From: Candidatus Berkelbacteria bacterium
GTDB taxonomy: Bacteria > Patescibacteriota > UBA1384 > 2-12-FULL-50-11
Length of the DNA: 64,000 nucleotides
Assembly: GCA_016432625.1 (NCBI GenBank)
Contig: CP066697.1
Coordinates: 671,951-735,950 of the forward strand
Reading direction: 5' to 3'
Shown: positions 1,108 to 20,663 of the stretch, in pieces
How the letters are laid out: each line of letters starts with the position of its first letter
Position numbering within the stretch: the stretch's first letter is position 1
Notes under the pieces: model-generated
What the model was told of the DNA's origin: nothing
The model's database searches: none
What the model saw: only the letters and a program-made list of their open reading frames with translations
Position numbers and translations under genes: made by a program

Positions 1108-4100
1108 TTACGGCACAATCTCGTAGACCACCGGGTCGCGGCCGAATTGCTTAACGACTTGATAGCCACGCTTAGCGCCGCCGTGATAACCAACTACCTT
1201 GTATGTGTCGGTGGAGGAAAGTGTCAAAGTCGAGTTGAACATGAAAACCAAATCTTCAGGGTCAGGAAGCCAGCTAAGATAGCGAGTAGCGTTTGACTTG
1301 CACTCGAAATCGTCATTACCTTCGCCTGTGTCGTTATAGTAATACTCGGAGCAATAGCTGTACCAGCGTCCACTAGCATCGTTTGAACCTCCTCGTCCTG
1401 CAGCAATAGCTGTGCCGATACCTGCTCCCGTCACAAGGATCGCCCCACCCTGGTTCGCGCCGGAGAAGGTGGTGAAGCCGGCAATCATCATAGTTTTATC
1501 TGAAGTGTAGTTCGTGGTTGTTTTCCCGTAAGGCGCGCCGGCACAACCGTTGCCGGTGTCGCATAAGTACGGATAGTAACCGTCCTGGTCCGAGCGGCCG
1601 TTAGTGGTTGAAGCGGAGTAAGACGAAGCGCCCATAATCATTCGAGCGTCAGCATTCTGATTACGAAATGCGCTACCCGGGTTAAGGACAGCTTTCGTAG
1701 AGCCCCAAGAATAACCACCATAAGTACCGTTAGTGTCGGAGATTCTTCCTAGCAGTCCGATGTGGCGCAGCAGCGGCGAGCTGTCATTGTCACCGGGCTG
1801 ACAGTCCTGACCGACATAGGAACACACCTTAGTGTTGCCGCTAGTGATACCCCCGGGAATCAGTTTGAAGGAGTTCTTAGTGTCGCCGACATCGCCAGTT
1901 TGGGTGAAATTATTGAATACTGTGTTAACCATCCCCGCGGCATCTACCGTTGAGTTGTCGGGCAGATAATACGCGTTATCCGGCTTGGAGAACGTCTCCC
2001 ACTGGGGCTCGCCGAGTAATCTGGGGCCGATATACTTACCGTAATCGCTAGTGGAGCCATCGAACTTCAGTTTGCCACCGAAATGCACTGCTTTGACAAG
2101 GTTATCCTTTTCGTACAGAACTAAACTGCCGCCAAACATATTCGGCAGATCCTTGCTACCGTCGGGTGAGGCCTTGCCGATAATCCAGCGTATGTCTTCG
2201 CTGCCGTTCATCTTGCCAGCGTGATCCATCTTCCAAAGGTCGGCGTAGCGGCCGTAGGTGCCTCCGACGGCGAAGATCTGACTCTTGGTACTGCCCTTGT
2301 TGTAGGTGCTACCGAAACCTCCTGCTTGGCGCGGGCTTGGCCGGTCGTTAACTTCCTGAGCGCCGTTATCGGTGTCAGAAATGCGGATCTGCCATAGAGG
2401 GTTATTATCTTTGGCGTTGGCATACCATTCAGGAGCCCCTTGGCCATAACTTGAGAGCTGATACTCAGCCAGGAAAAGGGCGAACGCGTCGTTACCGTTA
2501 TGTGATACAACAGCGTTACTACCGTAAGCAATTGGTGCCGGACTGGCGTACGGCTGATCGTCGGGATAGAGGCGAAATTCGTTGACACCCGCTTCGTAAG
2601 TTTTATTCTTAACCGTCATTGTATACGCCTCGATGCGATCGTTGTTACCAATAGTGCGCCAAAACATTACCGCCATTCCTGACGAGGGCAACTTGTTCAC
2701 CTCATCGCTCGACAGGTTGCGGAGCTTTAGGTAACCACCAGATGACCAGCGTATCTTGTCAGTACCCCCGTAGATCGCGTAGTCAGTCCGGTAGTAGCTG
2801 AATATCGACAGTTTGGCGTTTTTGCTATGCGTCTTGAGCCCGGAATCATTTGGATTACCTGGGTTATGCCTCAGGCGGATAATGGTGTTGTCGTAGCTGC
2901 CGGTAAAGGTGCTGACGATAATGCCATGAAATGTTTCGCGGACGTTTGGGTTAGGTCCGTCCGGACCGTTTTCACGCTCAATCGTCACATAGGCGCCAGT
3001 AACCAGGCGGCTCGGCGCGATGCTCTCACCACCGCTAGTCGCGATCGTTAGGTCCCAACACGATTGGTTCATGATACATGGCTGTGTATTGTTCCAACTC
3101 AAAGTTTGCGCTCCGGTCTTGGGATCGGTTGAGGCAACTTTGGCTATTTCGGGAGCGCTGGCGCCGTTCTGGGGCGTAAAGATTTGGGCTTCGAAACTGG
3201 GCTTAATAACCTTGAAGTTGTAGTCGTCGTTAGTTGAAGGCGCCGGGTTAGACATCGCTTTAGGCTTGGTTCCCCAAGCAACGCTAGCTTCGCCGCTCGC
3301 AACGCCGTTATTAAACTCCGCCTCCCACATCTCGTTGAAACGAATATTGGTGGCAATATTTTTGGAGTATCCCTGGAAGAGATAGTTAACTTGTTTGTTA
3401 GCCTGAGGGTCGCCAGGCTTAATGTTGATCGCAGCGCCGTAACGACCGACCGGAAAAGCCATCGCCGAATCGCCGGCAAACTTTGACGCCGCATCCGTAT
3501 TGTCGCGAAAGTCTTTCAGTTCGGCTCGGCGTTCATCAAAAGCAAAGTATAGCGTGCCATCTGTCTTTATATGGCTAATGTAGCCGCTTAACACCTGGTC
3601 AATCTTACCTGCCTGGTACTTCTCTAGAACCACTTGATCCCCAACCGCGTAACCGGTGCCATCTCCACTAAGATCACAGGTGTAATAACCACCTGCCGTG
3701 CTGCCAGTACAAGTATCAGCGGCGGCTTGTCGAGTTACAACTTGCATAAACAATTCTTGAAGAACGATCGATGCTGCCCCACGGATATTACCGTGCGCCA
3801 CAATAGTCACGGTGTCGTTGGGGTAATTGACGGCCGTCACCCTGGCCCAAGCGTTAAAGTAGGGTGCGCGGCTGAAAATGTATAGCTCGTCGCCAACCGC
3901 AAGCCCAGCAGCGCTGGGTGACATTTTGATAGTTGTAGCATCGGTGCCATTAACGTTTAGGTTGATTGGCACGGTCGCGTCCGCCCGCGGCTGCCATCTC
4001 CAGCGCTCCAGGCCGGAACGGTCCGCTAAAGTTGAAACAACGCGCACTTTATAACTATCGTTATTTTGGATTTTCTTTGTTGCGTCGAAGTTGTAGTTAA

Positions 4101-6201
4101 TCTTCTCCCAGGAATTGCCAGTTAGAGAATAGGCGTAGATGTCGTTTGTGACCCGTTTAGCAACACGCAAGCCAGCTTGGTTAGTGCCCAAACAATACGC
4201 CTGCGAGACCTCGCAATTAATCTGCCCGGGCGGATCGGTAACGGCAACACCTTCGTGATAATAACCGCCAAATAGGACCAGTCGCTTGTTCTGTTCGTCA
4301 TAAACTAACGACGAGCCAGCTTTCCGACCCGGTGGGGTTACCGTGCTTTGACTCGGGTAAATCCATTGGTCAGCCTCCGGATTATAGAGCCAGAGCTCGT
4401 CTGACTCAGAGTTGTAGCCGCCGTCGTAATCATTCATCGAAATTTCGCCGCCGTAATAAGCGATCATCGGCGTGACGCCGCCGTCAGTAGAGTAAGCTAC
4501 CGCTGCTTGGTGGCGAACAGGTTTCGGATAGATTCGAGCCCGGTCAATTGTGAAGCCGTTGATGCTGGTGCCGGCGAAGTTAACACTTTTAACTTGACCC
4601 CAGAAAGGCGTGGCCCCAGTTTTATTTAAGCTGACAACGTCGCCGACCGCCGGGCAAGCCGACAGCGTCGCGCTAATCGTGCAACTAGAGCTACCGTTCA
4701 GGGATAGGTCAATGCCGTCGTTACCGTTATCGTTTATAGTCAAGCCACTCATAGAAATTTTCGTCGAAAACTGGGCGTTATTTCCGGTTAGTACGATCGA
4801 GTCTAGATCCCCCCACGTGATGGCGGAACCGCCGATCTTATTGGGCGTATGATACGAATTCGGGCCGAGCTTGATCTTAACTGTTGTTGTATTGCCGGCA
4901 ACGCTAACTTCTGTCACCGATGCTTCGTAAAGTTTGCCTTGGTCGCTGGAGCGCTGTTCCAGCAGTAACGGCGTCTTCTGGCCACGTTGCAAGACGGTAA
5001 GTGATAGTTTTTTATTGAGACGAATGCCTTCCATCGAGCCGTAGAGAAGGCCTGTTATTGTCGCGCCTGGAGTGAGCTGAACGCCGTTCTGGCTATTGGC
5101 CAGCTTAACGAACGAGAACGGCCGGCTGCCTCGGACAATATCCACGTCCCAGTTATTACTGCCGCTTGAGCCAGTTAGGACCGGTCGATTCTTTTTTACC
5201 CAAGGCTTATTTGGCGTGTCGTTGATGTCGTCCGTCTTGTAGGCGCCCCCTAGGTCCTCTTCCGGCAAATCGTTCCATAACGACGGCTGAAGCCAGCTTA
5301 CTCGGTACTCATTGCTATCGGTGAATAGATCGCCCAAACCGTATTCTTGTAAAACGTTGTCCTTGACTGAGGCGTCTAGCCAAACCTTGAAGTTATTATT
5401 TCTGATCGTTGACTCAAACTGGGTTTTAATATCGTTGGCGCTGATCCGATCTACTCCAGTTGTGGAGCCGCCGCTTGTCACTAACGCCGTATCAACCCAG
5501 CGCGGCAGGTAGGGAATGTACAGGAAATCTAGCCCCTCGTAGTAAGAGCCAGAGCTGTCAGTATTTTTACGCGTCAGAAACTCATCTTCTGGGCCACCCA
5601 TTTTAATTGTCCAGTACCCCCTGTAGCTCTGCTGCTCTGTGGCCGGCGCGTACGGGTTATAGAAATGCCCCATCTTGGTTAGCTCGCTTATCGGCAAAAG
5701 CTTGTCACTTTCGGCACTGATTGAGCCGTTTTCAGGAATGGAGCCGAGCGGCGTATCGTTAATGATATTAGCGTAATAGAAAATCATCGCCGGGTTAGAC
5801 GGGTCGTCATCTTGGAACAAATACTTACCGCCGTTAGTCCACGGCGAGAGTACGGCTACCGATAAGCAGCGTGGTAGGGCGGTTGAGGCCTTCTCGTAGC
5901 TACTAACGATACTGCGCGGACTTGGTTTGTATTTCGTTAGATCAACCCCGGTACTTTCTTGGTTTTTGTCGAGATCGTAAATCGTCGGGTCAACCGCCGT
6001 CCCTAACTCAAGCTTCTCTTTGAGTTTGGCTAGTCCCGAGTCGGCGGCAAGTTTGGCAACGGCGGAGTTATTAATCTTGTCTGTCGAGCTTAATTGGTCG
6101 AAACGAATTGCCACAGCGCCAAGGGTGGTGGTTGTCAGGACAGCGATAACCATCACGGTTAAAAGCAAAATTGAGCCAGGTTTTAAGGTCGAGTTATTCA
6201 T
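1108..6201 (-). CDS. Giant (1697 aa) pilus-associated surface protein: PilX_N-like N-terminal hydrophobic segment plus Kelch-type beta-propeller repeats (candidate PilX/PilY1-like tip adhesin)
   Basis: Single uninterrupted ORF. N-terminus 'KPGSILLLTVMVIAVLTTTTLGAVAI' resembles the PilX_N domain but lacks the G|FxxxE prepilin cleavage motif. Kelch-like motifs include 'LVYDEQNKRLVLFGGYY' and 'GGTYGRYADLWKMD...SLVLYEKDNLVKAVHFGG'. The start overlaps the upstream pseudopilin stop (TAAgccATG). Confidence 0.6.
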   Translation of the reverse strand: MNNSTLKPGSILLLTVMVIAVLTTTTLGAVAIRFDQLSSTDKINNSAVAKLAADSGLAKLKEKLELGTAVDPTIYDLDKNQESTGVDLTKYKPSPRSIVSSYEKASTALPRCLSVAVLSPWTNGGKYLFQDDDPSNPAMIFYYANIINDTPLGSIPENGSISAESDKLLPISELTKMGHFYNPYAPATEQQSYRGYWTIKMGGPEDEFLTRKNTDSSGSYYEGLDFLYIPYLPRWVDTALVTSGGSTTGVDRISANDIKTQFESTIRNNNFKVWLDASVKDNVLQEYGLGDLFTDSNEYRVSWLQPSLWNDLPEEDLGGAYKTDDINDTPNKPWVKKNRPVLTGSSGSNNWDVDIVRGSRPFSFVKLANSQNGVQLTPGATITGLLYGSMEGIRLNKKLSLTVLQRGQKTPLLLEQRSSDQGKLYEASVTEVSVAGNTTTVKIKLGPNSYHTPNKIGGSAITWGDLDSIVLTGNNAQFSTKISMSGLTINDNGNDGIDLSLNGSSSCTISATLSACPAVGDVVSLNKTGATPFWGQVKSVNFAGTSINGFTIDRARIYPKPVRHQAAVAYSTDGGVTPMIAYYGGEISMNDYDGGYNSESDELWLYNPEADQWIYPSQSTVTPPGRKAGSSLVYDEQNKRLVLFGGYYHEGVAVTDPPGQINCEVSQAYCLGTNQAGLRVAKRVTNDIYAYSLTGNSWEKINYNFDATKKIQNNDSYKVRVVSTLADRSGLERWRWQPRADATVPINLNVNGTDATTIKMSPSAAGLAVGDELYIFSRAPYFNAWARVTAVNYPNDTVTIVAHGNIRGAASIVLQELFMQVVTRQAAADTCTGSTAGGYYTCDLSGDGTGYAVGDQVVLEKYQAGKIDQVLSGYISHIKTDGTLYFAFDERRAELKDFRDNTDAASKFAGDSAMAFPVGRYGAAINIKPGDPQANKQVNYLFQGYSKNIATNIRFNEMWEAEFNNGVASGEASVAWGTKPKAMSNPAPSTNDDYNFKVIKPSFEAQIFTPQNGASAPEIAKVASTDPKTGAQTLSWNNTQPCIMNQSCWDLTIATSGGESIAPSRLVTGAYVTIERENGPDGPNPNVRETFHGIIVSTFTGSYDNTIIRLRHNPGNPNDSGLKTHSKNAKLSIFSYYRTDYAIYGGTDKIRWSSGGYLKLRNLSSDEVNKLPSSGMAVMFWRTIGNNDRIEAYTMTVKNKTYEAGVNEFRLYPDDQPYASPAPIAYGSNAVVSHNGNDAFALFLAEYQLSSYGQGAPEWYANAKDNNPLWQIRISDTDNGAQEVNDRPSPRQAGGFGSTYNKGSTKSQIFAVGGTYGRYADLWKMDHAGKMNGSEDIRWIIGKASPDGSKDLPNMFGGSLVLYEKDNLVKAVHFGGKLKFDGSTSDYGKYIGPRLLGEPQWETFSKPDNAYYLPDNSTVDAAGMVNTVFNNFTQTGDVGDTKNSFKLIPGGITSGNTKVCSYVGQDCQPGDNDSSPLLRHIGLLGRISDTNGTYGGYSWGSTKAVLNPGSAFRNQNADARMIMGASSYSASTTNGRSDQDGYYPYLCDTGNGCAGAPYGKTTTNYTSDKTMMIAGFTTFSGANQGGAILVTGAGIGTAIAAGRGGSNDASGRWYSYCSEYYYNDTGEGNDDFECKSNATRYLSWLPDPEDLVFMFNSTLTLSSTDTYKVVGYHGGAKRGYQVVKQFGRDPVVYEIVP

Positions 6202-6204
6202 GGC

Positions 6205-7245
6205 TTAAGTTGGCCCAGGTGGCCCTGGCGGTGGCGCTTCCTCTCCGCCCTCTTCGCCGCCACCCTCTTCGCCTCCACCACCGCCGCCACCTCCACCGCC
6301 GCCAGCGGCGATCTCAAACGTTAAGTCTTGAACGTCAACCAACTGGGGATTGGTGCTATCGCGCAGAGTGACGGTGATACTTACGGTTCCTGCGACAGTA
6401 GGCGTACCCTGCAATACGTACTTATTGCCCTGCTGTGTAAGAGTGAGGTTGGGGAAAGATCCCAGGTTGCCAGTGTGACTCCAAGAGTAAGGCAGCTTAC
6501 CACCCTCGCCGATAATTTCTTTACTATACGGCTCATCGACAGTGCCGTTTGGCATCGCTGTGGTGGCGATATTAACCGGAATAATCCCCGTACCGATAAG
6601 GCCGATAGGCAGAGCGCTCGTGACTGTCGTCGACGAAGTTTTTGTCTCCTGAGCTCGTCCGCTTTGCTGCAAGGTTAATTCTAAGGTGAAGGAGTAGCGC
6701 AGCTGTTGCTTTGTGGCGCAGTTAGCTGACGGATCGCAATCATATGAGTTAAGTTGAGCTTGAAAATTAGTCACCTTCACCTGCTTACTCGAAAGGCGAT
6801 TTTGGTAAATCGGCATTGTTGCTAGGTCTGGGCATTGCAAGGCTGAATCGACCTTATAAACCCAGTAAGCGATAGTGTCGCCAGTAGTGTCAATGGTGTA
6901 TAGCTCTTGGTTACTAGCGTCAACCGCTGCTTTAGCGCGGCCAACGACTTCACAGGTATTGCGGTTCTGGGCCGTTGAAAAGGCCTCAATACGAACACCA
7001 GCAAAAGCATCGGGATTTGTGTAATAGCCTTGCAAATCGACGGCGCCTACAGGTGCATTTGAGGCAATCCGCCGCATGGTGTCCGTGACTGAACGAGCTG
7101 ATTCAGTAATTGAAGAGCGGGCATCGGTCCGAGAGACGAGGCTGTTTGTGCCGACTGTGGCAACTAGCGCCACAGTGACGGCGACCATAAAAAGCCCGAT
7201 GCTGACAACGATCTCGATTAACGTAAAACTTGGCTTAATTTTCAT
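6205..7245 (-). CDS. Prepilin-type (class III signal) pseudopilin with C-terminal Ig-like (He_PIG-type) domain and Gly/Glu/Pro-rich tail
   Basis: N-terminus 'MKIKPS|FTLIEIVVSIGLFMVAV' has E at +5. Internal 'LPNGTVDEPYSKEIIGEGGKLPYSWSHTGNLG...LQGTPTVAGTVSITVTLRDS' matches the putative-Ig-domain pattern. C-terminus is 'GGGGGGGGGGGEEGGGEEGGEEAPPPGPPGPT'. A GGAG RBS sits 7 nt upstream. Confidence 0.7.
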   Translation of the reverse strand: MKIKPSFTLIEIVVSIGLFMVAVTVALVATVGTNSLVSRTDARSSITESARSVTDTMRRIASNAPVGAVDLQGYYTNPDAFAGVRIEAFSTAQNRNTCEVVGRAKAAVDASNQELYTIDTTGDTIAYWVYKVDSALQCPDLATMPIYQNRLSSKQVKVTNFQAQLNSYDCDPSANCATKQQLRYSFTLELTLQQSGRAQETKTSSTTVTSALPIGLIGTGIIPVNIATTAMPNGTVDEPYSKEIIGEGGKLPYSWSHTGNLGSFPNLTLTQQGNKYVLQGTPTVAGTVSITVTLRDSTNPQLVDVQDLTFEIAAGGGGGGGGGGGEEGGGEEGGEEAPPPGPPGPT

Positions 7246-7248
7246 GGC

Positions 7249-7713
7249 TTACTCCAATAATTGGCTAGAGACAACGCTCCTGTTAGCGCCTTTACCCCAA
7301 GTCGTTTTAGCAACCACAAGATAGTTATTACCGGTATTAATCACATTAATTTCCGGCACAAATTGTAACCGACTACGACCTAGCTGCACGGGTTTAGGAT
7401 CGGCGTTCAAGGTGCAGTTTTGGGCTAAGTTATCTTGTGAACAGGCCACGTAGCAAGTCTCCCCAAGCACGCAGGAGCTTTCATACGTTTGCTTGAAGGT
7501 GTCGCCCAGGCTCTCGCGGAGAATTGTTACATACGATAGGCTCTGCTCGTTCAAGGCATACGCCGCGCCTTTAGTTTCGGCGGTAGTTACTAGACGGGAA
7601 GCGGCTGAGTTTAGCGACGACATCGCCACTCCAACCATAATCAAAAAGCTGACCGCGAAGACAACTTCAATCAGGCTGAAAGCCTTTTTACGCCTAGCTA
7701 GATCGTGGTGCAT
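7249..7713 (-). CDS. Prepilin-type N-terminal cleavage/methylation domain protein (pilin/pseudopilin, 154 aa)
   Basis: Leader 'MHHDLARRKKA|FSLIEVVFAVSFLIMVGVAM' has E at +5. A GAGGGG RBS sits 6 nt upstream. Its size is consistent with a major-pilin-like subunit. Confidence 0.75.
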   Translation of the reverse strand: MHHDLARRKKAFSLIEVVFAVSFLIMVGVAMSSLNSAASRLVTTAETKGAAYALNEQSLSYVTILRESLGDTFKQTYESSCVLGETCYVACSQDNLAQNCTLNADPKPVQLGRSRLQFVPEINVINTGNNYLVVAKTTWGKGANRSVVSSQLLE

Positions 7714-9083
7714 TCTTGCCCCTCAGTAGGTATCGCTAAGCGCCACCGTTGATAAATATTTCTAATTCCCCTCAGGTCAGCAACTCGACCAAAACGATTT
7801 CGGTTATAAGCCTGCTGTTGCGCACAGTTGTAGAGGATCACCCCTGGATCGGTCGGATCATCAAGATCAACGACATCGTCTTCGTCCTTGACGCTTCCTT
7901 GGCCACAGTCAATTGTGAAAGTCTTCTGTCGCTGACGTTCGACATCAAACGCTGCTTGATACGGGTCCTGAAGATTGCCGGCTTCATCCGAGGCGGCCAC
8001 ATTGACTACCACCTGGAACTGCTGATGCGACACCGATATCAAAGTCGTCTCGAAGGTGTACTGAACCCTTTCAAAGCCAGGACGGATATCGTAAAAGTAG
8101 CGGATCGCCAGCGGCCTAAACAGCGGCTGGCCGTTAGCCATCTCGCCGTTAACTTGCCAGCTTATGTCGTAGTAGACTGCTAGGTTCGGATCCGGGTCAT
8201 TTGGGTCAGTGACCCGATCCTCAGCCCGGGGGTAGCTTAGCGTGACGACGCTGGGGCCGCCGTTACCGCAACGCAAGTTCAATATGAAGTCAGCTTGATC
8301 GATGCCTACGTCACTCCACTTCGGCTTCAGACTGTCGGAAAACGCGGTAAAGAAGTCCTGAGGATTAACTTTGGCGACAGTTATCTCGCTGGTTTGCCGA
8401 TCGATAACGACGTAGCGTTTTTCGGTTAACTTTTGGGCACTAACAGTTATTACTAGGTAACGTGCTCGTGCCTCGCCAGCAGATTTGGACAATTTGCCTA
8501 TCCAGGAGGCGTTATTGAAGTCGGTCGAGTCGATATTGGGGTTTGAGGCGTTACCGCAGTTGAAGCCGATCTTGCCAACCGTGAAACGCACCACCGCCTT
8601 GACGTCACCTGCTGCGTAGTTGGCAGGGAAAAACGAGGAGATGTAAATATTACGCGGCAGTTTGAGTTCGCGAAGACGGGCGAAGCCGCTTTGAGTATCG
8701 CTAGGATCGCAGCGCGCCGCCCCACGCTCTAGGTAAAGCTGATTGGTGCTTGCTGACCCAGTGAAGGTGTAGTTAGCGGCTTGACCGGATTTAAAGTCCC
8801 CGATTGAAACTTGGTAAACTTGCCCGAGAGCCCCTGTATCCTTGCCCGTAGGCGCTAAGGATCTTGTCTTGGCATCGATTAAGAGCTGCCGGACTCGATT
8901 GGCGCTAGTGTCCAGACTCAGCCTGTCGTTACGGCCGAAGATATTCGGCAAGCTTGCCAGGCTAATCAGGGTGATTACGGCCAGTACAACTAAAAGCTCG
9001 ATAAGGCTGTAGCCTTTTTGCGGGGCTGGGGAGCGGCTGATGGGTTTACCAACTCTGGATATCATCGAGCTTGGCATCGACAT
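7698..9083 (-). CDS. Large prepilin-type pseudopilin (minor pilin, about 460 aa)
   Basis: Contains 'QKG|YSLIELLVVLAVITLISLASL' with E at +5. The ORF is open to 9146, but internal Met codons at 9083, 9077 and 9065 are the plausible starts. It overlaps the upstream pilin gene end, so the start is uncertain. Confidence 0.6.
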   Translation of the reverse strand: MSMPSSMISRVGKPISRSPAPQKGYSLIELLVVLAVITLISLASLPNIFGRNDRLSLDTSANRVRQLLIDAKTRSLAPTGKDTGALGQVYQVSIGDFKSGQAANYTFTGSASTNQLYLERGAARCDPSDTQSGFARLRELKLPRNIYISSFFPANYAAGDVKAVVRFTVGKIGFNCGNASNPNIDSTDFNNASWIGKLSKSAGEARARYLVITVSAQKLTEKRYVVIDRQTSEITVAKVNPQDFFTAFSDSLKPKWSDVGIDQADFILNLRCGNGGPSVVTLSYPRAEDRVTDPNDPDPNLAVYYDISWQVNGEMANGQPLFRPLAIRYFYDIRPGFERVQYTFETTLISVSHQQFQVVVNVAASDEAGNLQDPYQAAFDVERQRQKTFTIDCGQGSVKDEDDVVDLDDPTDPGVILYNCAQQQAYNRNRFGRVADLRGIRNIYQRWRLAIPTEGQECTTI

Positions 9084-10032
9084 TATCGCAAGTCGTAGTA
9101 TTCGCCCGCCAGGCATTACTGCTGTAAGTAATCGGCTCGTTGGCACTTAGTGATCGGTCGTCTCGCTTAATATCGCCGGCGACAGTCTTGCCGTTGCATT
9201 GATAGAGGTACTTGCCGTTCAGGATCTGCCGCAAGCCGCCAAAAGTTGTGAAGAAGAACTCATTTGCGGTTCCCCCAAAAACTGAGTCGGAGTCGGAGTC
9301 GTCATCAAGGTGGCGCACCGTACCGCCGCTACCTAAGTAATAGCGTTTCTCCGCTTGAGCAGAAGAGTTGAATAAGTACTTCGGCTCGGTGTCGTTGGTA
9401 TTCTCAAGCTTTGCGCCAACCAGTACGTCAACATAGTCGTAAGATACTCGGTATTGGTAACCGTTGAGGCTAGTTGAGCCATATGTTGGGTCGCTAACTA
9501 GCCGATCGACGTACTTTAAGCAGGTCAGGAAGTGGTTCACGGCCGTAAAGCCTGGCTTCAAGATGGCGTTGTCGTAATCGCTTGAAGCGGTGGTAAAATC
9601 CGTCGCGACAGAGAAGTTCGTTGGATTGCCGGCGCCGCTCAAGCCTTCACAGCCGGCGATATCTGTACCTAGATCTAGGCTGGAGGTTGCGGCACCGGTG
9701 TCAGTAGTATTCTTGCCCAAGTAAAAAGTATGGTTCGGATAAAGCTTAAAGTCGGTTTTAAATAGATCGAGTCCGGCTAAGTACAGATTGAGATCGCTCT
9801 TACGTCTAGCGTCACGAGACTTTAGCTGAATCGGGCGTATGGTTACGGTAACCAGGGTAATTAAGATGCCGATAATCGAGATGACAAGTAAAAGCTCGAT
9901 AAGGGTGAACCCGTTACGCGGTAAACTCGAAATCCGAAATCCGAAATTTGAGACAATACCTAATTTCGAAATTTGAAATTTAAAACGTTTAGAGTTTGTT
10001 TCGGCTTTCGTGCTTCGTGCTTCGTGCTTCAT
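9046..10032 (-). CDS. Prepilin-type pilin/pseudopilin (328 aa) with unusually long 40-aa leader built from heptanucleotide repeats
   Basis: Classic 'RNG|FTLIELLLVISIIGILITLV' motif. The only canonical in-frame start is ATG 10030-10032, only 7 nt after the pilC stop. The leader is encoded by tandem repeats (ttcgtgc x3, cgaaatc x3). Confidence 0.7.
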   Translation of the reverse strand: MKHEARSTKAETNSKRFKFQISKLGIVSNFGFRISSLPRNGFTLIELLLVISIIGILITLVTVTIRPIQLKSRDARRKSDLNLYLAGLDLFKTDFKLYPNHTFYLGKNTTDTGAATSSLDLGTDIAGCEGLSGAGNPTNFSVATDFTTASSDYDNAILKPGFTAVNHFLTCLKYVDRLVSDPTYGSTSLNGYQYRVSYDYVDVLVGAKLENTNDTEPKYLFNSSAQAEKRYYLGSGGTVRHLDDDSDSDSVFGGTANEFFFTTFGGLRQILNGKYLYQCNGKTVAGDIKRDDRSLSANEPITYSSNAWRANTTTCDNVDAKLDDIQSW

Positions 10033-10039
10033 AATTTAA

Positions 10040-11173
10040 TTAAAACTGCCCCGTTAGATTGTAGATTGGTTGCAGTACAGAGATCACAATGAAGCCCACA
10101 GCCCCTCCTAATAAGACAATAATAAACGGTTCGACGAGCGAAGAAAACGTCCTAAGCTTGGCGTCTACCTCGGTTTCAAAATACTCCGCCAAAGTGCTGG
10201 CTGAGCCGCCGAGGTCGCCGGACTGCTGCCCAACCAGTAAAAGCTGCGTCATGAGCTTTGGGAAGTAACGGCTTTTTTGCAAAGTCGACGAGATCGCCGC
10301 GCCTTGTTCAAGCGAGGTGCGTAGCTGTTTAAGCGAGCGTGTGAAGATCGTGTTCGTTGTTGAGTCGGCAATAATATCCACCGATTCAATAATCGGCACG
10401 CCGGCGCCGATCAGTAAAGCCAGCGTTCTGTTAAAGCGCGCTAAGTAAACTTCTCGGGTTAACCCGCCGAAAATCGGGAAGTTTAGCGCCAAATAGCTCA
10501 CTGTATCCTTGCCAGCACGTGTCAGCGTAAAAAGTTTAACTGCTACGACCAACCCGACGATAATGGCAATAAGGTAGTACCACTGGTTAATAAGAAAATC
10601 TGTAAACGCCAGCAACATTTGGGTCGAGATCGGCAAATCGGACCCGGTGGATTCGAAGATGTCTTTGATCGGCGGAATGACTCTGGTTAGGATGACGAAC
10701 CCTACGATAACCATAACCACCAAGATGAACGCTGGGTAAATCATGGCGCCGCGGACCCGGCTAATAAACTCGGCGGTTCGGGCCGTGGTCACCGAAAGTT
10801 CGTCGAGCACTTTGCTCAAATTACCGGTCGCCTCACCAGCACGGATAACGCCGATCTCCACCTCGGGGAAAGTTTTGGGGTGCCCGGACATTGCCACGGA
10901 TAGCGGGAAACCATTCTCCAAGCTTTTATAGACTTCGCGCATCACGGCTTTCAGCTTGCGGTTTGGTGTTTCGGCAGCGATATCAACCGCTTGGGTAATG
11001 CCGACGCCGGCTTTAAGCATCGTCGAAACTTCTCGGTACATAATCGACCGATCTTTAGCGTTTACCTTACCTATACTGAGGTGGGCCAAACCCTTTTTTT
11101 GTTCGACAACAGAAATGATCGTGTAACCGCGTTCTTCTAAAAGTTTGCGTACGGAAACAGCTTCGTACGCCAA
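10040..11173 (-). CDS. pilC: Type IV pilus assembly platform protein PilC / GspF family
   Basis: 377-aa ORF with a GspF-domain architecture of multiple TM helices and two cytoplasmic repeats. The listed start is TTG. The conserved N-terminal motif 'FRYKVKDGHGKIKSG' is encoded in-frame upstream of it without a canonical start. Confidence 0.75.
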   Translation of the reverse strand: MAYEAVSVRKLLEERGYTIISVVEQKKGLAHLSIGKVNAKDRSIMYREVSTMLKAGVGITQAVDIAAETPNRKLKAVMREVYKSLENGFPLSVAMSGHPKTFPEVEIGVIRAGEATGNLSKVLDELSVTTARTAEFISRVRGAMIYPAFILVVMVIVGFVILTRVIPPIKDIFESTGSDLPISTQMLLAFTDFLINQWYYLIAIIVGLVVAVKLFTLTRAGKDTVSYLALNFPIFGGLTREVYLARFNRTLALLIGAGVPIIESVDIIADSTTNTIFTRSLKQLRTSLEQGAAISSTLQKSRYFPKLMTQLLLVGQQSGDLGGSASTLAEYFETEVDAKLRTFSSLVEPFIIVLLGGAVGFIVISVLQPIYNLTGQF

Positions 11174-19578: not shown

Positions 19579-19682
19579 AACAACCTCCGTGTTCGCCCAA
19601 ATTGTGAAGAGCGTGTAAGGAAAACCGTACGCCGGTGCGTAGGTGACTGCAAGCGGGTTATTTCAGGTACAATCTTCCTGTA

Positions 19683-20663
19683 ATGGCAAAGCGTTTAGTC
19701 AGCGGCATCCAACCGACTGGCGTTCTACACATCGGCAACTATCTGGGCGCTATCAAGCAGTGGGTCGAGTTGCAGGACGACTATGACGCCTATTTTTTCA
19801 TCGTCGATTATCACGCCTTAACCCAGCGCCCGAAAGCCGCCGAGCTACGTCAAAATGTCCTCTCGACGGCGGCGATGCTGGTGGCACTCGGGATCGACCC
19901 GAAATCGGCTAGCTTATTCGTCCAATCCCAAGTGCCGGAGCACGCCGAGCTTTGCTGGCTCCTGATGAGCCTGACTTCTGTCGGGGCGCTCTCAAGAATG
20001 ACGCAGTACAAAGAAAAGTCCGATCGTCACGGCCAGAACGCGGGGCTGTTTGCTTATCCGGTGTTAATGGCCGCCGATATATTGATCTATCGACCAGAGA
20101 TCGTGCCAGTCGGCGAGGATCAAGCTCAGCACGTCGAATTAACGAGAGACATCGTCGAAACCCTTAATAACCTTTACGGCCAAACGTTAGCGCAACCAAA
20201 AGTTCAATTAAATAAAGCTGGCCGAGTCATGGCCTTAAACAACCCGACAAAGAAAATGTCCAAATCCGTCCCGGGTAGCGCCATAACGCTGCTCGACGAG
20301 CCGAGTGTCGTTGAGCAGACGCTCAAGCGAGCCGTAACCGACTCTGACCCCAACTACAGCCAAATGAGTCCTGGGGTAGCCAATCTTTTCCTACTGCTTG
20401 AAAACTTCAGCGAGCCTGAAACGTATCTGCACTTCGAAGAGCAGCAGAAGAAAGGCACCTTGCGTTACACCGAGCTGAAGGAACAATTAACCGAGGACAT
20501 CAACGCCTTTTTGGCGCCGGTGCAGAAAACCTATCACGCCCTCATGGACGATCCCGCAAAAATCCGACGGCTGCTGGAAGAGGGCGCCGGCAAAGCCCGT
20601 CCCGTAGCCCAAGAGACGCTCCTGGTCGTCAAAAAAGCGCTTGGCCTCAACCTCAACGATTGA
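19683..20663 (+). CDS. trpS: Tryptophan--tRNA ligase
   Basis: Class I motifs 'HIGN' (GIQPTGVLHIGNYLG) and 'KMSKS' (KMSKSVPGS). 326 aa. A TACAAT -10 box sits 9 nt upstream of the ATG. Confidence 0.95.
   Translation: MAKRLVSGIQPTGVLHIGNYLGAIKQWVELQDDYDAYFFIVDYHALTQRPKAAELRQNVLSTAAMLVALGIDPKSASLFVQSQVPEHAELCWLLMSLTSVGALSRMTQYKEKSDRHGQNAGLFAYPVLMAADILIYRPEIVPVGEDQAQHVELTRDIVETLNNLYGQTLAQPKVQLNKAGRVMALNNPTKKMSKSVPGSAITLLDEPSVVEQTLKRAVTDSDPNYSQMSPGVANLFLLLENFSEPETYLHFEEQQKKGTLRYTELKEQLTEDINAFLAPVQKTYHALMDDPAKIRRLLEEGAGKARPVAQETLLVVKKALGLNLND

What the first reader, a model, noticed from the sequence alone, without database searches (positions are those of the whole stretch)
9915..10032. 5' end of a pilin gene built from heptanucleotide tandem repeats encoding a 40-aa leader
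The only canonical start (ATG 10032) lies 7 nt after the pilC stop with no SD sequence. The first 40 codons before G|FTLIEL are made of short tandem repeats: ttcgtgc x3 (10007-10027), cgaaatc x3 (9928-9948) and gaaattt copies. Seven-nt units are not a multiple of 3, so gaining or losing one unit shifts the frame. This is the classic slipped-strand phase-variation architecture. A 40-aa prepilin leader is also unusually long.
Basis: seen in the sequence. Interest (0 to 1): 0.6.

Follow-up and report, generated by a model that had tools for sequence, protein, structure and literature searches.

The report
Heptamer-repeat leader in a pilin gene
The main pilus-fibre gene of an uncultured Berkelbacteria bacterium starts with about 105 extra bases built from three 7-base tandem repeats, which stretch the cleaved-off signal peptide to 41 residues; related species carry similar repeat blocks that are stably inherited, so this looks like a lineage-specific sequence element and not a proven on/off switch.

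Summary
On the minus strand, three period-7 arrays lie between ATG 10032 and the prepilin cleavage site G41|F42. They are GAAGCAC x3.4, AAATTTC x3.3 and ATTTCGG x2.9. They are the only period-7 arrays in the 64 kb window, and no shuffle reproduces the 7-nt periodicity. The gene is the first pilin after pilC in a Candidatus Berkelbacteria pilus operon.

The phase-variation reading is only formally possible. Any gain or loss of one unit truncates the product. However, the tracts have only about 3 units, and every assembly of this strain carries the same allele. No frameshifted allele appears among about ten repeat-bearing pilin leaders in relatives. In one species pair, the Shine-Dalgarno (SD) ribosome-binding site, the ATG and (AAATTCT)x5 are 100% identical over 53 nt, although the mature pilin is only 66% identical.

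Close orthologues have 5-6 aa leaders with the ATG overlapping the pilC stop, so the query carries a recent insertion of about 105 nt. Across 54 orthologues leaders span 5-52 aa, and several long ones have a strong SD plus ATG.

Best reading: a translated leader extension built by replication slippage. It belongs to a clade-specific class of 7-8 nt periodic arrays in pilin leader-coding regions. Their function is probably at the mRNA level but is unproven.

The parts
10040..11173 (-). pilC (T2SSF platform protein), 377 aa; stop codon TAA at 10042-10040
   Evidence: Pfam PF00482 E=2.6e-50. The pilC->pilin order is conserved in all related loci.
10033..10039 (-). 7-nt gap (TTAAATT) between the pilC stop and the pilin ATG. 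Close relatives have 0-1 nt here or an overlap (TAATG).
9910..10032 (-). Leader-coding segment, 41 codons: MKHEARSTKAETNSKRFKFQISKLGIVSNFGFRISSLPRNG. GC is 36%, net charge about +7, and the whole segment is 7-nt periodic.
   Evidence: It is absent from the closest orthologues, which have 5-6 aa leaders; the alignment shows a lineage-specific insertion of about 105 nt.
10007..10030 (-). Array 1: GAAGCAC x3.4, perfect. It begins with the G of the ATG. A degenerate fourth unit, GAAAGCC, follows down to about 9999.
   Evidence: TRF; sequence
9962..9985 (-). Array 2: AAATTTC/TTTCAAA x3.3 (88% matches). It ends in the palindrome AATTTCGAAATT (9962-9973).
   Evidence: TRF; the repeat finder. Similar (CAAnTTT)n units occur in the leader of L103.
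9928..9947 (-). Array 3: ATTTCGG x2.9, perfect. It is imperfectly complementary to array 1 (24 nt, 75%).
   Evidence: TRF; inverted repeat I1. The hairpin energy is not better than shuffles: z = -1.0 and -1.1.
9850..9918 (-). Class III signal-peptide core (N_methyl motif, residues 39-61). The predicted prepilin-peptidase site G41|F42 lies between 9910 and 9909; Glu is at +5.
   Evidence: Pfam PF07963 E=5.5e-7. F42, L44, E46, L47 and L48 are invariant in 35 homologues.
9046..9909 (-). Mature pilin (287 aa plus stop). It is conserved in about 55 Berkelbacteria-like orthologues.
   Evidence: E down to 1e-162, and hits cover only about 88% of the query, that is, everything except the leader
1108..9065 (-). 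Rest of the operon: three further pilin-like genes (7698-9065, 7249-7713, 6205-7245) and a 1697-aa Kelch-repeat protein (1108-6201). None has period-7 arrays in this genome.

Best explanation
**What it is.** This is the 5' end of the first (major-type) type IV pilin gene of a Candidatus Berkelbacteria pilus operon. A lineage-specific, AT-rich insertion of about 105 nt has expanded the prepilin leader from the ancestral 5-6 residues to 41. The insertion is built from three heptanucleotide arrays that arose by replication slippage. Array 1 starts inside the ATG itself.

**How it most likely works (inferred).**
1. The pilin is co-transcribed with pilC.
2. Ribosomes that terminate at the pilC UAA re-initiate 7 nt downstream at AUG 10032.
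3. They translate through the arrays. All three units are stop-free in every phase.
4. This yields a basic (+7) leader followed by the class III signal-peptide helix.
5. Prepilin peptidase cuts at G41|F42, so the repeat-encoded peptide never reaches the pilus.

**Wider context.** The arrays belong to a clade-specific class of 7-8-nt periodic, A/T-rich arrays that sit between the start codon and the cleavage site of pilin genes in Berkelbacteria-like genomes. Where these arrays can be compared they are stable in copy number, and in one species pair they are conserved at the nucleotide level. They therefore behave as a fixed cis element and not as a hypermutable tract. The most plausible role is a weakly structured A/U-rich translation-initiation region or a platform for a single-strand RNA-binding protein. 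One unit slip would still switch the pilin off, so rare phase variation is a possible by-product.
For: **Shown**
- Pilin identity and cleavage motif.
- Arrays and 7-nt periodicity far beyond chance.
- Close orthologues are compact: the ATG overlaps or abuts the pilC stop and the leader is 5-6 aa. The flanks align well, so the leader is an insertion.
- Long leaders are real in the clade. L104 has 33 aa behind GGGGAGGG + ATG as the only in-frame start. L103 has 42 aa behind AAGGAGG + ATG. Annotated leaders span 5-52 aa and are conserved in length within subclades.
- Repeat arrays lie downstream of SD-supported ATGs and upstream of the cleavage site in L108 (major and 4th pilin), L109, L100, L104 (4th pilin) and L091.
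- 106 pilin N-termini from unrelated lineages have no such periodicity: maximum 0.45, against 0.5-0.66 in the clade.
- In the L096/L108 major-pilin array, the variant unit AAATTCA sits exactly where a perfect AAATTCT unit would give an in-frame TAA.
- Stability: contig pairs are identical. P0026 is identical on 11 contigs.
- L108 versus L109: 53 nt (SD + ATG + array) are 100% identical. In the mature gene only 94 of 184 codons for identical amino acids are themselves identical. This is the only 45-nt window at 100% identity in a 3.7-kb alignment.
- No sigma-70-like promoter is found on the minus strand in or near the leader.
- Many genes of this genome lack an SD.

**Inferred**
- Termination-reinitiation coupling.
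- Cleavage by prepilin peptidase.
- An mRNA-level role for the arrays.
Against: - No relative shares the query's own leader, so its conservation cannot be tested directly.
- The open frame is not significant: 21% of shuffles are open.
- GC of 36% and the absence of 3-nt periodicity look non-coding.
- There is no SD at canonical spacing before ATG 10032.
- No prepilin peptidase gene was found in the part of the window I annotated.
- The L108/L109 identity block could be a short recombination tract and not purifying selection. One database protein, P0054, is a chimera of two leader and body types.
- The proposed mRNA-level role is speculative. RNA folding shows neither significant structure nor significant lack of it.
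- Unit sequences differ between species (AAATTCT, AAAATCT, AATTACT, TTTGGGA, ATTTCGG), which argues against a single sequence-specific binding factor.
Confidence: 0.5

Rival explanations
1. This is a genuine contingency locus. Slipped-strand mispairing in the heptamer arrays switches the major pilin ON and OFF by frameshifting, as with neuO or opa. This would let the episymbiont vary piliation under phage or host pressure.
For: - The unit length is not a multiple of 3, and the arrays lie just after the start codon.
- Every gain or loss of one unit truncates the protein to 16-54 aa.
- Two arrays are perfect.
- Arrays recur at several pilus genes in related genomes, and their units show concerted change between species: L108 AAATTCT versus L100 AAAATCT/TAAATCT. 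This means unit turnover happens on evolutionary time scales.
- With +1 unit in array 3, an out-of-frame TTG comes into frame with an 18-aa leader.
Against: - There are only about 3 units per tract.
- The allele is identical in all assemblies of this strain.
- No copy-number differences occur in six near-identical contig pairs of relatives.
- None of about 10 repeat-bearing leaders is out of frame. In neuO, 65.6% of genomes are OFF and copy number ranges from 3 to 53.
- The L108/L109 array, including its interrupting variant unit, is identical across species.
Confidence: 0.15
2. The repeat region is not translated from ATG 10032. It is a 5' UTR or promoter spacer, as in L108 and L104. The pilin then starts at a non-canonical codon nearer the cleavage site. 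Candidates are ATT I26 at 9957-9955 (16-aa leader, the same length as in L108 and L100) or ATT I34 at 9933-9931 (8-aa leader).
For: - In L096/L108, L100 and L104, a GAAnnnn-type array, a -10-like box and an SD lie between pilC and the pilin ATG. The second array follows that ATG.
- The query has the same order of array types.
- 'AGGTATTGTCTCAAAT' in the query resembles 'AGGTATACTCAAAT' of L099, L104 and L090.
- L099 has ATT exactly where L104 has its SD-preceded ATG (ITKLLN versus MTKLLN).
- The leader has non-coding-like composition, and its open frame is not significant.
Against: - The scan finds no sigma-70-type promoter on the minus strand here.
- There is no usable SD before either ATT: AGG is 1 nt from I26, and only GGA precedes I34.
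- AUU initiation is rare (own knowledge).
- An ATG placed at the pilC junction is exactly the ancestral start position seen in compact relatives.
- L099 is a 3x-coverage contig (contig name).
Confidence: 0.15
3. The insertion is a neutral by-product. The leader is cleaved off and almost unconstrained, so slippage duplications accumulate there without any function at the peptide, RNA or DNA level.
For: - Leader length varies from 5 to 52 aa among orthologues, and sequence is not conserved between subclades.
- The query's arrays are young (perfect) and absent from its closest relatives.
- Five orthologues carry partial duplications of the N-terminal motif in the leader, which shows a duplication-prone 5' end.
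Against: - Nucleotide-level conservation of the L108/L109 array exceeds that of synonymous sites.
- Leaders are conserved within subclades.
- Arrays are restricted to pilin 5' ends in a 21-kb sample.
- They are absent from 106 control pilin N-termini, whose leaders should be equally unconstrained.
Confidence: 0.2

Closest known systems
E. coli K1 neuO: heptanucleotide (AAGACTC)n tract in the 5' coding region; translational phase variation
   Same: A 7-nt tandem repeat lies directly after the start codon. It is translated, and the frame is kept only for certain unit numbers (PMC13001214).
   Different: neuO has a single long tract of 3-53 units. Most genomes are OFF, and within-culture heterogeneity is measurable (7% non-modal). 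Here there are three different short arrays (about 3 units each), no observed polymorphism, and the repeat-encoded peptide is cleaved off.
Neisseria opa genes: (CTCTT)n in the signal-peptide-coding region (own knowledge)
   Same: The repeats sit in the part of the gene that encodes a removed signal peptide, so the repeat sequence is free of constraints from the mature protein.
   Different: opa tracts are long and perfect with documented high-rate switching. They use a Sec-type signal peptide, not a class III prepilin leader.
TAACTGA heptamer direct repeats next to start codons in Beggiatoaceae, Cyanobacteria and Bacteroidetes (MacGregor 2015, PMC4679880)
   Same: Two to six copies of a 7-nt direct repeat lie at translation-initiation regions, often where the SD is weak or absent. 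A post-transcriptional role has been proposed via S1, or via cold-shock proteins that bind one heptamer per protein.
   Different: Those repeats share one fixed heptamer, are mostly upstream of the start codon, and are spread over about 170 unrelated genes. Here the units differ between species, lie inside the coding leader, and are restricted to pilus genes.
Type IVb pilins and other long-leader prepilins (leaders of about 15-30 aa; own knowledge)
   Same: They have a basic leader ending in Gly, followed by a hydrophobic helix with Glu+5, and are processed by a prepilin peptidase.
   Different: The query leader (41 aa) exceeds the usual range and is low-complexity and repeat-encoded. The mature N-terminus is Phe, as in type IVa pilins. 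Leader length is not conserved between close relatives.
Rickettsia palindromic elements (in-frame repeat insertions in coding genes; own knowledge)
   Same: A short, AT-rich, partly palindromic insertion is tolerated in frame inside a protein-coding gene.
   Different: No other copies occur in the 64-kb window. There is no evidence of mobility, and the internal structure is a tandem heptamer, not a dispersed consensus element.

Membership tests
Type IV prepilin (class III signal peptide) | N-terminal methylation/cleavage motif: G(-1), F(+1), E(+5), followed by a hydrophobic helix of about 20 aa | tested here: met
   PF07963 E=5.5e-7, residues 39-61. The sequence is ...PRNG|FTLIELLLVISIIGILITLVTV. 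F42, L44 and E46 are invariant in 35 homologues.
Type IV prepilin (class III signal peptide) | Short basic leader (classically about 5-30 aa) | tested here: inconclusive
   The leader is basic (9 K/R, 2 E) but 41 aa long if ATG 10032 is used. Orthologues range from 5 to 52 aa. The start codon has not been verified experimentally.
Type IV prepilin (class III signal peptide) | Genomic association with pilus machinery | tested here: met
   pilC (PF00482) lies immediately upstream, and three further pilin-like genes lie downstream. No prepilin peptidase or ATPase was seen in the ORFs I annotated; the rest of the window and genome were not searched.
SSR-mediated translational phase variation (contingency locus) | Tandem repeat with a unit length not divisible by 3, inside the ORF, such that unit changes shift the frame | tested here: met
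SSR-mediated translational phase variation (contingency locus) | Long, homogeneous tract that gives a high slippage rate | tested here: not met
   The three different arrays have 2.9, 3.3 and 3.4 units. neuO has 3-53 units, with 20 the commonest.
SSR-mediated translational phase variation (contingency locus) | Copy-number polymorphism and OFF alleles among strains or assemblies | tested here: not met
   All assemblies of this strain are identical. Six near-identical contig pairs of relatives are identical. There are no out-of-frame repeat-bearing leaders. The array is identical in L108 and L109. Power is limited because only consensus sequences were compared.
SSR-mediated translational phase variation (contingency locus) | Within-population length heterogeneity and ON/OFF expression | not testable with these tools
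   This needs the raw reads of SRR12113407 and SRR12113397, or cultures.
TAACTGA-type heptamer direct repeats at start codons | The specific heptamer TAACTGA, spread genome-wide upstream of many genes | tested here: not met
   The units here are GAAGCAC, AAATTTC and ATTTCGG. They are the only period-7 arrays in 64 kb. In the 21-kb L108 locus, strong arrays occur only at pilin leaders.
Dispersed palindromic/MITE-like element | Multiple similar copies elsewhere in the genome | tested here: not met
   There are no other matches in the window with up to 3 mismatches or by blastn-short. Only 64 kb of the roughly 0.77-Mb genome was available.
Known structured RNA family | Match to an Rfam covariance model, or significantly stable fold | tested here: not met
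   There are no Rfam hits in the window. MFE z = -1.0 and -1.1 against shuffles.

The most novel reading that the evidence does not exclude
Berkelbacteria (Candidate Phyla Radiation, CPR) pilus genes may carry a previously undescribed class of cis element. It consists of paired arrays of 7-8-nt A/T-rich units placed between the start codon and the prepilin cleavage site, and in some genomes upstream of pilC. The units turn over by slippage between species but are held constant within species. They would act on the mRNA or DNA to set pilin expression. Possible mechanisms are a platform for a protein with a heptamer footprint such as a cold-shock-domain protein, or a low-rate, multi-gene contingency system for pili in episymbionts.
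Probability: 0.3. Interest if true: 0.65.

Novelty: new variant of a known kind. Interest (0 to 1): 0.5.

Why it matters
Type IV pili are the main surface organelle of CPR/Patescibacteria. They are implicated in host attachment, motility and DNA uptake, and almost nothing is known about how they are regulated in these uncultured organisms.

If the arrays control pilin output, by translation efficiency or by rare frameshifts, they would be a sequence signature that can be searched for directly in metagenomes. They would also be a handle for read-level population studies of piliation.

The finding also shows that class III signal peptides tolerate leaders of 30-50 residues of essentially arbitrary, repeat-encoded sequence. 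This matters for pilin gene calling and start-site annotation in CPR genomes.

If the arrays are only neutral slippage products, the finding is a tidy example of microsatellite birth in an unconstrained coding segment and is of modest interest.

Tried and rejected
1. **RNA hairpin between array 1 and array 3.** The inverted repeat is 24 nt and 75% complementary. The MFE structure pairs the arrays in 5-bp blocks, but z is only -1.0 and -1.1. In relatives the hairpin signal is significant in L090 (two elements), L099, the region upstream of pilC in L100, and the L104 4th pilin (z -1.9 to -3.0). It is absent in L096, L100 major, L103 and L104 major. The antisense strand usually folds as well or better, so there is no sense-strand-specific structure.
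2. **Rfam.** No family matched.
3. **Own promoter inside the leader.** The consensus scan found none on the minus strand.
4. **Dispersed repeat or MITE.** No other copies were found.
5. **-1 frameshift site.** A_AAT_TTC is in phase at S28-N29-F30, but slipping leads straight to a stop. I dropped the idea.
6. **Scan of genome contigs with the full-length alignment.** It was swamped by the generic FTLIELL motif and returned no true orthologues. The 80 loci were reused as a negative control.
7. **Searching for repeat-number variants of this strain through exact look-ups of the neighbours pilC and the 455-aa pilin.** Only the same contigs came back.
8. **Open-frame statistics as evidence of translation.** Not significant.
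9. **Literature search for CPR pilin phase variation or long leaders.** Nothing relevant was found.
Full report
**What is at the coordinates**

The feature lies on the minus strand. ORF 9046..10032 encodes a 328-aa protein, MKHEARSTKAETNSKRFKFQISKLGIVSNFGFRISSLPRNG|FTLIELLLVISIIGILITLV.... It matches the prokaryotic N-terminal methylation motif (PF07963, E=5.5e-7, residues 39-61). It follows a T2SSF/PilC gene at 10040..11173 (PF00482, E=2.6e-50). Three further pilin-like genes and a 1697-aa Kelch-repeat protein follow on the same strand. An identical protein is annotated in Candidatus Berkelbacteria MAGs (accessions QQG49827.1 and QQG51641.1). The pilC stop codon occupies 10042-10040. Seven bases (TTAAATT) separate it from ATG 10032-10030.

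**Checking the observation**

Tandem Repeats Finder reports three arrays, given here as minus-strand units:
- GAAGCAC x3.4 at 10007-10030, perfect.
- AAATTTC-type x3.3 at 9962-9985, 88% matches.
- ATTTCGG x2.9 at 9928-9947, perfect.

These are the only period-7 arrays in the whole 64-kb window. The entire 118-nt segment is 7-periodic. Its lag-7 self-identity is 0.63, against 0.26 +/- 0.04 in 5000 dinucleotide shuffles, none of which reaches it. It is the top-scoring 118-nt window of the 64 kb; the runner-up scores 0.39.

ATG 10032 is the only in-frame ATG/GTG/TTG upstream of the cleavage site. The other two frames contain stops.

Two caveats apply. First, the open frame alone is not significant, because 21% of shuffles are also open. 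Second, the lack of a Shine-Dalgarno (SD) ribosome-binding site is ordinary in this genome, where many well-defined genes lack one.

**Comparison with orthologues**

A protein search found about 55 true orthologues (E 1e-162 to 1e-48). Their alignments cover only about 88% of the query, that is, everything except the leader.

The closest group (60-75% identity) has 5-6-aa leaders such as MRNRKA|FTLIEL and MIKRRG|FTLIEL. Synteny is conserved in the DNA of these loci: a PRC-barrel gene on the opposite strand, then pilC, the pilin and further pilins. The pilin ATG overlaps or abuts the pilC stop: TAATG in L005 and L089, 0-1 nt in L006 and L004.

A five-species DNA alignment shows well-aligned flanks, namely the pilC 3' end and the mature pilin 5' end. 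Between them is an indel-rich leader of 5, 6, 21, 28 and 41 codons. The query therefore carries a lineage-specific insertion of about 105 nt (35 codons, so in frame) with 36% GC in a roughly 52% GC genome. Array 1 begins with the G of the ATG, which points to expansion in place by slippage.

**Long leaders and repeat arrays are a clade feature**

Annotated leaders of 54 orthologues range from 5 to 52 aa, with a median of 15; ten are >=30 aa. They are conserved in length and sequence within subclades. Examples are three 29-aa MKRNLQSNRGIRYAK... leaders, four 15-aa MxSFWRAKR... leaders, and the 16-aa MKILNSKFKILNSRS[AG].

Two long leaders are anchored by strong signals. L104 has 33 aa, GGGGAGGG 5 nt before the only in-frame ATG, and a TTGCTC-N16-TATACT promoter-like site upstream. 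L103 has 42 aa behind AAGGAGG.

Several relatives also carry 7-8-nt arrays between the start codon and the cleavage site:
- L096/L108 major pilin: ATG (AAATTCT)x5.
- L100: (AAAATCT/TAAATCT)x4.4.
- L103: (CAAGTTT)x4.
- L099: (AATTACG/AAATTACT)x4.5 then (ATTCAGTT)x4.5.
- L091: arrays at two or three pilin genes.
- The 4th pilin of L104: (AAAGTCA)x6 then (TTTGGGA)x4.4.
- The 4th pilin of L108: (AAAAGTC/AAAACTC)x7 then (TTCGAAA)x4.4.

In L100, a pair of arrays also lies upstream of pilC, in non-coding DNA.

I used lag-7/8 self-identity of the 100 nt before the cleavage site as a score. Nine of about 60 pilin N-termini in the clade reach 0.48-0.66. None of 106 pilin N-termini from 80 unrelated loci exceeds 0.45; their mean is 0.30. 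In the 21-kb L108 locus, strong period-7 arrays occur only at the two pilin leaders. They are not found at chaperonin, ribosomal-protein or other genes.

**Are the arrays hypermutable?**

The evidence says no, within the limits of consensus sequences.
- The query allele is identical in every assembly that carries it.
- Six pairs or trios of near-identical contigs from different samples show no repeat-number difference: L106/107, L104/105, L090/091, L006/007/008, L093/094, and the window with L001/L002.
- P0026, with its 5-unit array, is identical on 11 contigs.
- None of the repeat-bearing leaders is out of frame.

The most telling comparison is L108 against L109. Their mature pilins are 66% identical (184 of 277 residues). 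Only 94 of the 184 codons for identical residues are themselves identical. Even the first 60 mature codons differ at 42 of 180 nt. Yet the block CGAGGGGAA-ATG-(AAATTCT array)-CGATC, 53 nt long, is 100% identical, including the interrupting AAATTCA unit. It is the only 45-nt window at 100% identity in a 3.7-kb alignment of pilC, the pilin and the second pilin. That variant unit sits exactly where a perfect unit would create an in-frame TAA, which is consistent with translation.

For contrast, the bona fide heptanucleotide switch neuO shows 3-53 units among 64 genomes, 65.6% OFF genotypes, and 7% non-modal lengths within a culture (PMC13001214).

One caveat remains. A short recombination tract could also produce the identical L108/L109 block. 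The database protein P0054 is a chimera of one lineage's leader and N-terminus with another lineage's body. That may reflect real exchange of 5' modules or an assembly artefact.

Over longer divergence (L108 versus L100) the units change in a concerted way while the leader stays at 16 codons. Slippage turnover therefore does occur on evolutionary time scales.

**What a slip would do in the query**

Removing or adding one unit in any array gives peptides of 16-54 aa and no pilin. The architecture is therefore formally a frameshift switch. One curiosity: with four ATTTCGG units, an out-of-frame TTG would come into frame with an 18-aa leader. All three units are free of stop codons in every phase.

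**Where does translation start?**

By position, ATG 10032 corresponds to the ancestral start at the pilC junction. I favour termination-reinitiation there.

A rival reading comes from relatives with a spacer (L108, L100, L104). In these, a GAAnnnn-type array, a -10-like box, an SD and the ATG lie between pilC and the second array. The query has the same order of array types and an 'AGGTATTGTCTCAAAT' resembling 'AGGTATACTCAAAT' of L099, L104 and L090. However, it has no canonical start and no usable SD after it. In L099, an ATT occupies the position of L104's ATG. An ATT start at I26 would give a 16-aa leader. The promoter scan finds nothing on this strand. I give this rival reading 0.15.

**Structure and known families**

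- Rfam has no match.
- Arrays 1 and 3 are imperfect reverse complements, but the fold is not better than shuffles (z about -1).
- In relatives the paired arrays give significant hairpins in about half of the cases. Antisense folds are as good or better, so a sense-RNA structure is not established.
- No other copies of the units occur in the window.
- Literature searches found nothing on CPR pilin leaders or phase variation.

The nearest precedents are three. The first is neuO. The second is opa-type repeats in signal-peptide-coding regions (own knowledge). The third is the TAACTGA heptamer direct repeats at start codons in Beggiatoaceae and Cyanobacteria. For those, S1 or cold-shock proteins, which bind one heptamer per protein, were proposed as readers (PMC4679880).

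**Verdict**

The 'classic phase variation' interpretation is only formally supported and is contradicted by the available comparative data, although read-level data are lacking.

The best-supported account is a translated extension of the prepilin leader, built by slippage. It belongs to a clade-specific class of stable 7-8-nt arrays embedded in pilin leader-coding regions. Their function is unknown; an mRNA-level role in initiation is my inference.

I rate this a new variant of a known kind, with interest 0.5.

Noticed in passing
L104 5391-5500; L108 12721-12830 (= L096 4554-4660); L091/L090 2640-2750 and 3190-3263; L100 400-470: Paired period-7/8 arrays also occupy the leaders of the 4th (and in L091 the 3rd) pilin genes, and the non-coding region upstream of pilC in related genomes. 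The two arrays of a pair are often approximate reverse complements (AATTAC/GTAATT, AGAAT/ATTCT, TCAAA/TTTGG).
   Followed up: partly
L108 9991-10044 vs L109 3491-3544: The SD, the ATG and the (AAATTCT)x5 array form a 53-nt block that is 100% identical between two species whose mature pilins are 66% identical. It is the most conserved stretch in 3.7 kb.
   Followed up: yes
Orthologue proteins P0002, P0003, P0012, P0018, P0041: The annotated leaders contain a partial second copy of the cleavage motif and N-terminal helix, for example MPRRAFTLIELLMPNRRFGRGVRKNG|FTLIELL. This indicates recurrent small duplications or recombination at the pilin 5' end.
   Followed up: no
L099 around 195-215 vs L104 around 2495-2510: L099 has ATT exactly where L104 has its SD-preceded ATG start (ITKLLN vs MTKLLN). 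This is either AUU initiation or an error in a 3x-coverage contig. L099, L104 and L090 share the block GGAAGGTATACTCAA. A TTGCTC hexamer 16 nt upstream of it, giving TTGCTC-N16-TATACT, was seen only in L099 and L104; the L090 contig starts too close to show it.
   Followed up: partly
P0054 vs P0047 and P0124: P0054 is a chimera. Residues 1-90 are nearly identical to P0047 (repeat-type leader). Residues 91-231 are nearly identical to P0124 (different leader type). This is either exchange of 5' modules between lineages or an assembly artefact from SRR3989344.
   Followed up: partly
L109 6170-6292: The 4th pilin leader of L109 has no heptamer arrays. Instead it has a GC-rich perfect inverted repeat (CCACCTCCACC...GGTGGAGGTGG) at the equivalent position.
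   Followed up: no
window 6205-6310 (minus strand; C-terminus of the 346-aa pilin-like protein): A low-complexity tail, GGGGGGGGGGGEEGGGEEGGEEAPPPGPPGPT, is encoded by period-9/12/15 repeats (TRF 6240-6304).
   Followed up: no
window 1108-6201 (minus strand): A 1697-aa protein with Kelch/beta-propeller repeats lies directly after the minor pilins. It is syntenic in relatives (1643-1705 aa) and is a possible pilus-associated adhesin. A TrmB-family regulator follows at 273-1052.
   Followed up: no
window 9284-9301: (GAGTCG)x3 on the plus strand encodes the DSDSDS run inside the pilin. The DDDSDSDS motif is conserved in orthologues.
   Followed up: no
window 19650-19685 and 53780-53815: Many genes lack an SD. 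Some have a TGGTACAAT/GGTACAAT -10-like box only about 10 nt before the ATG, which suggests very short or leaderless 5' UTRs in this genome.
   Followed up: no
L028 3290-3590; also L029 347-413, L060 1369-1406, L067 1243-1274: Planctomycete loci fetched as controls contain intergenic heptamer or octamer arrays. In L028, inverted arrays flank a tRNA-like sequence, and L029 has (TGGCACG)x9.6. Heptamer arrays are therefore not unique to CPR, but in these loci they are not in pilin leaders.
   Followed up: no
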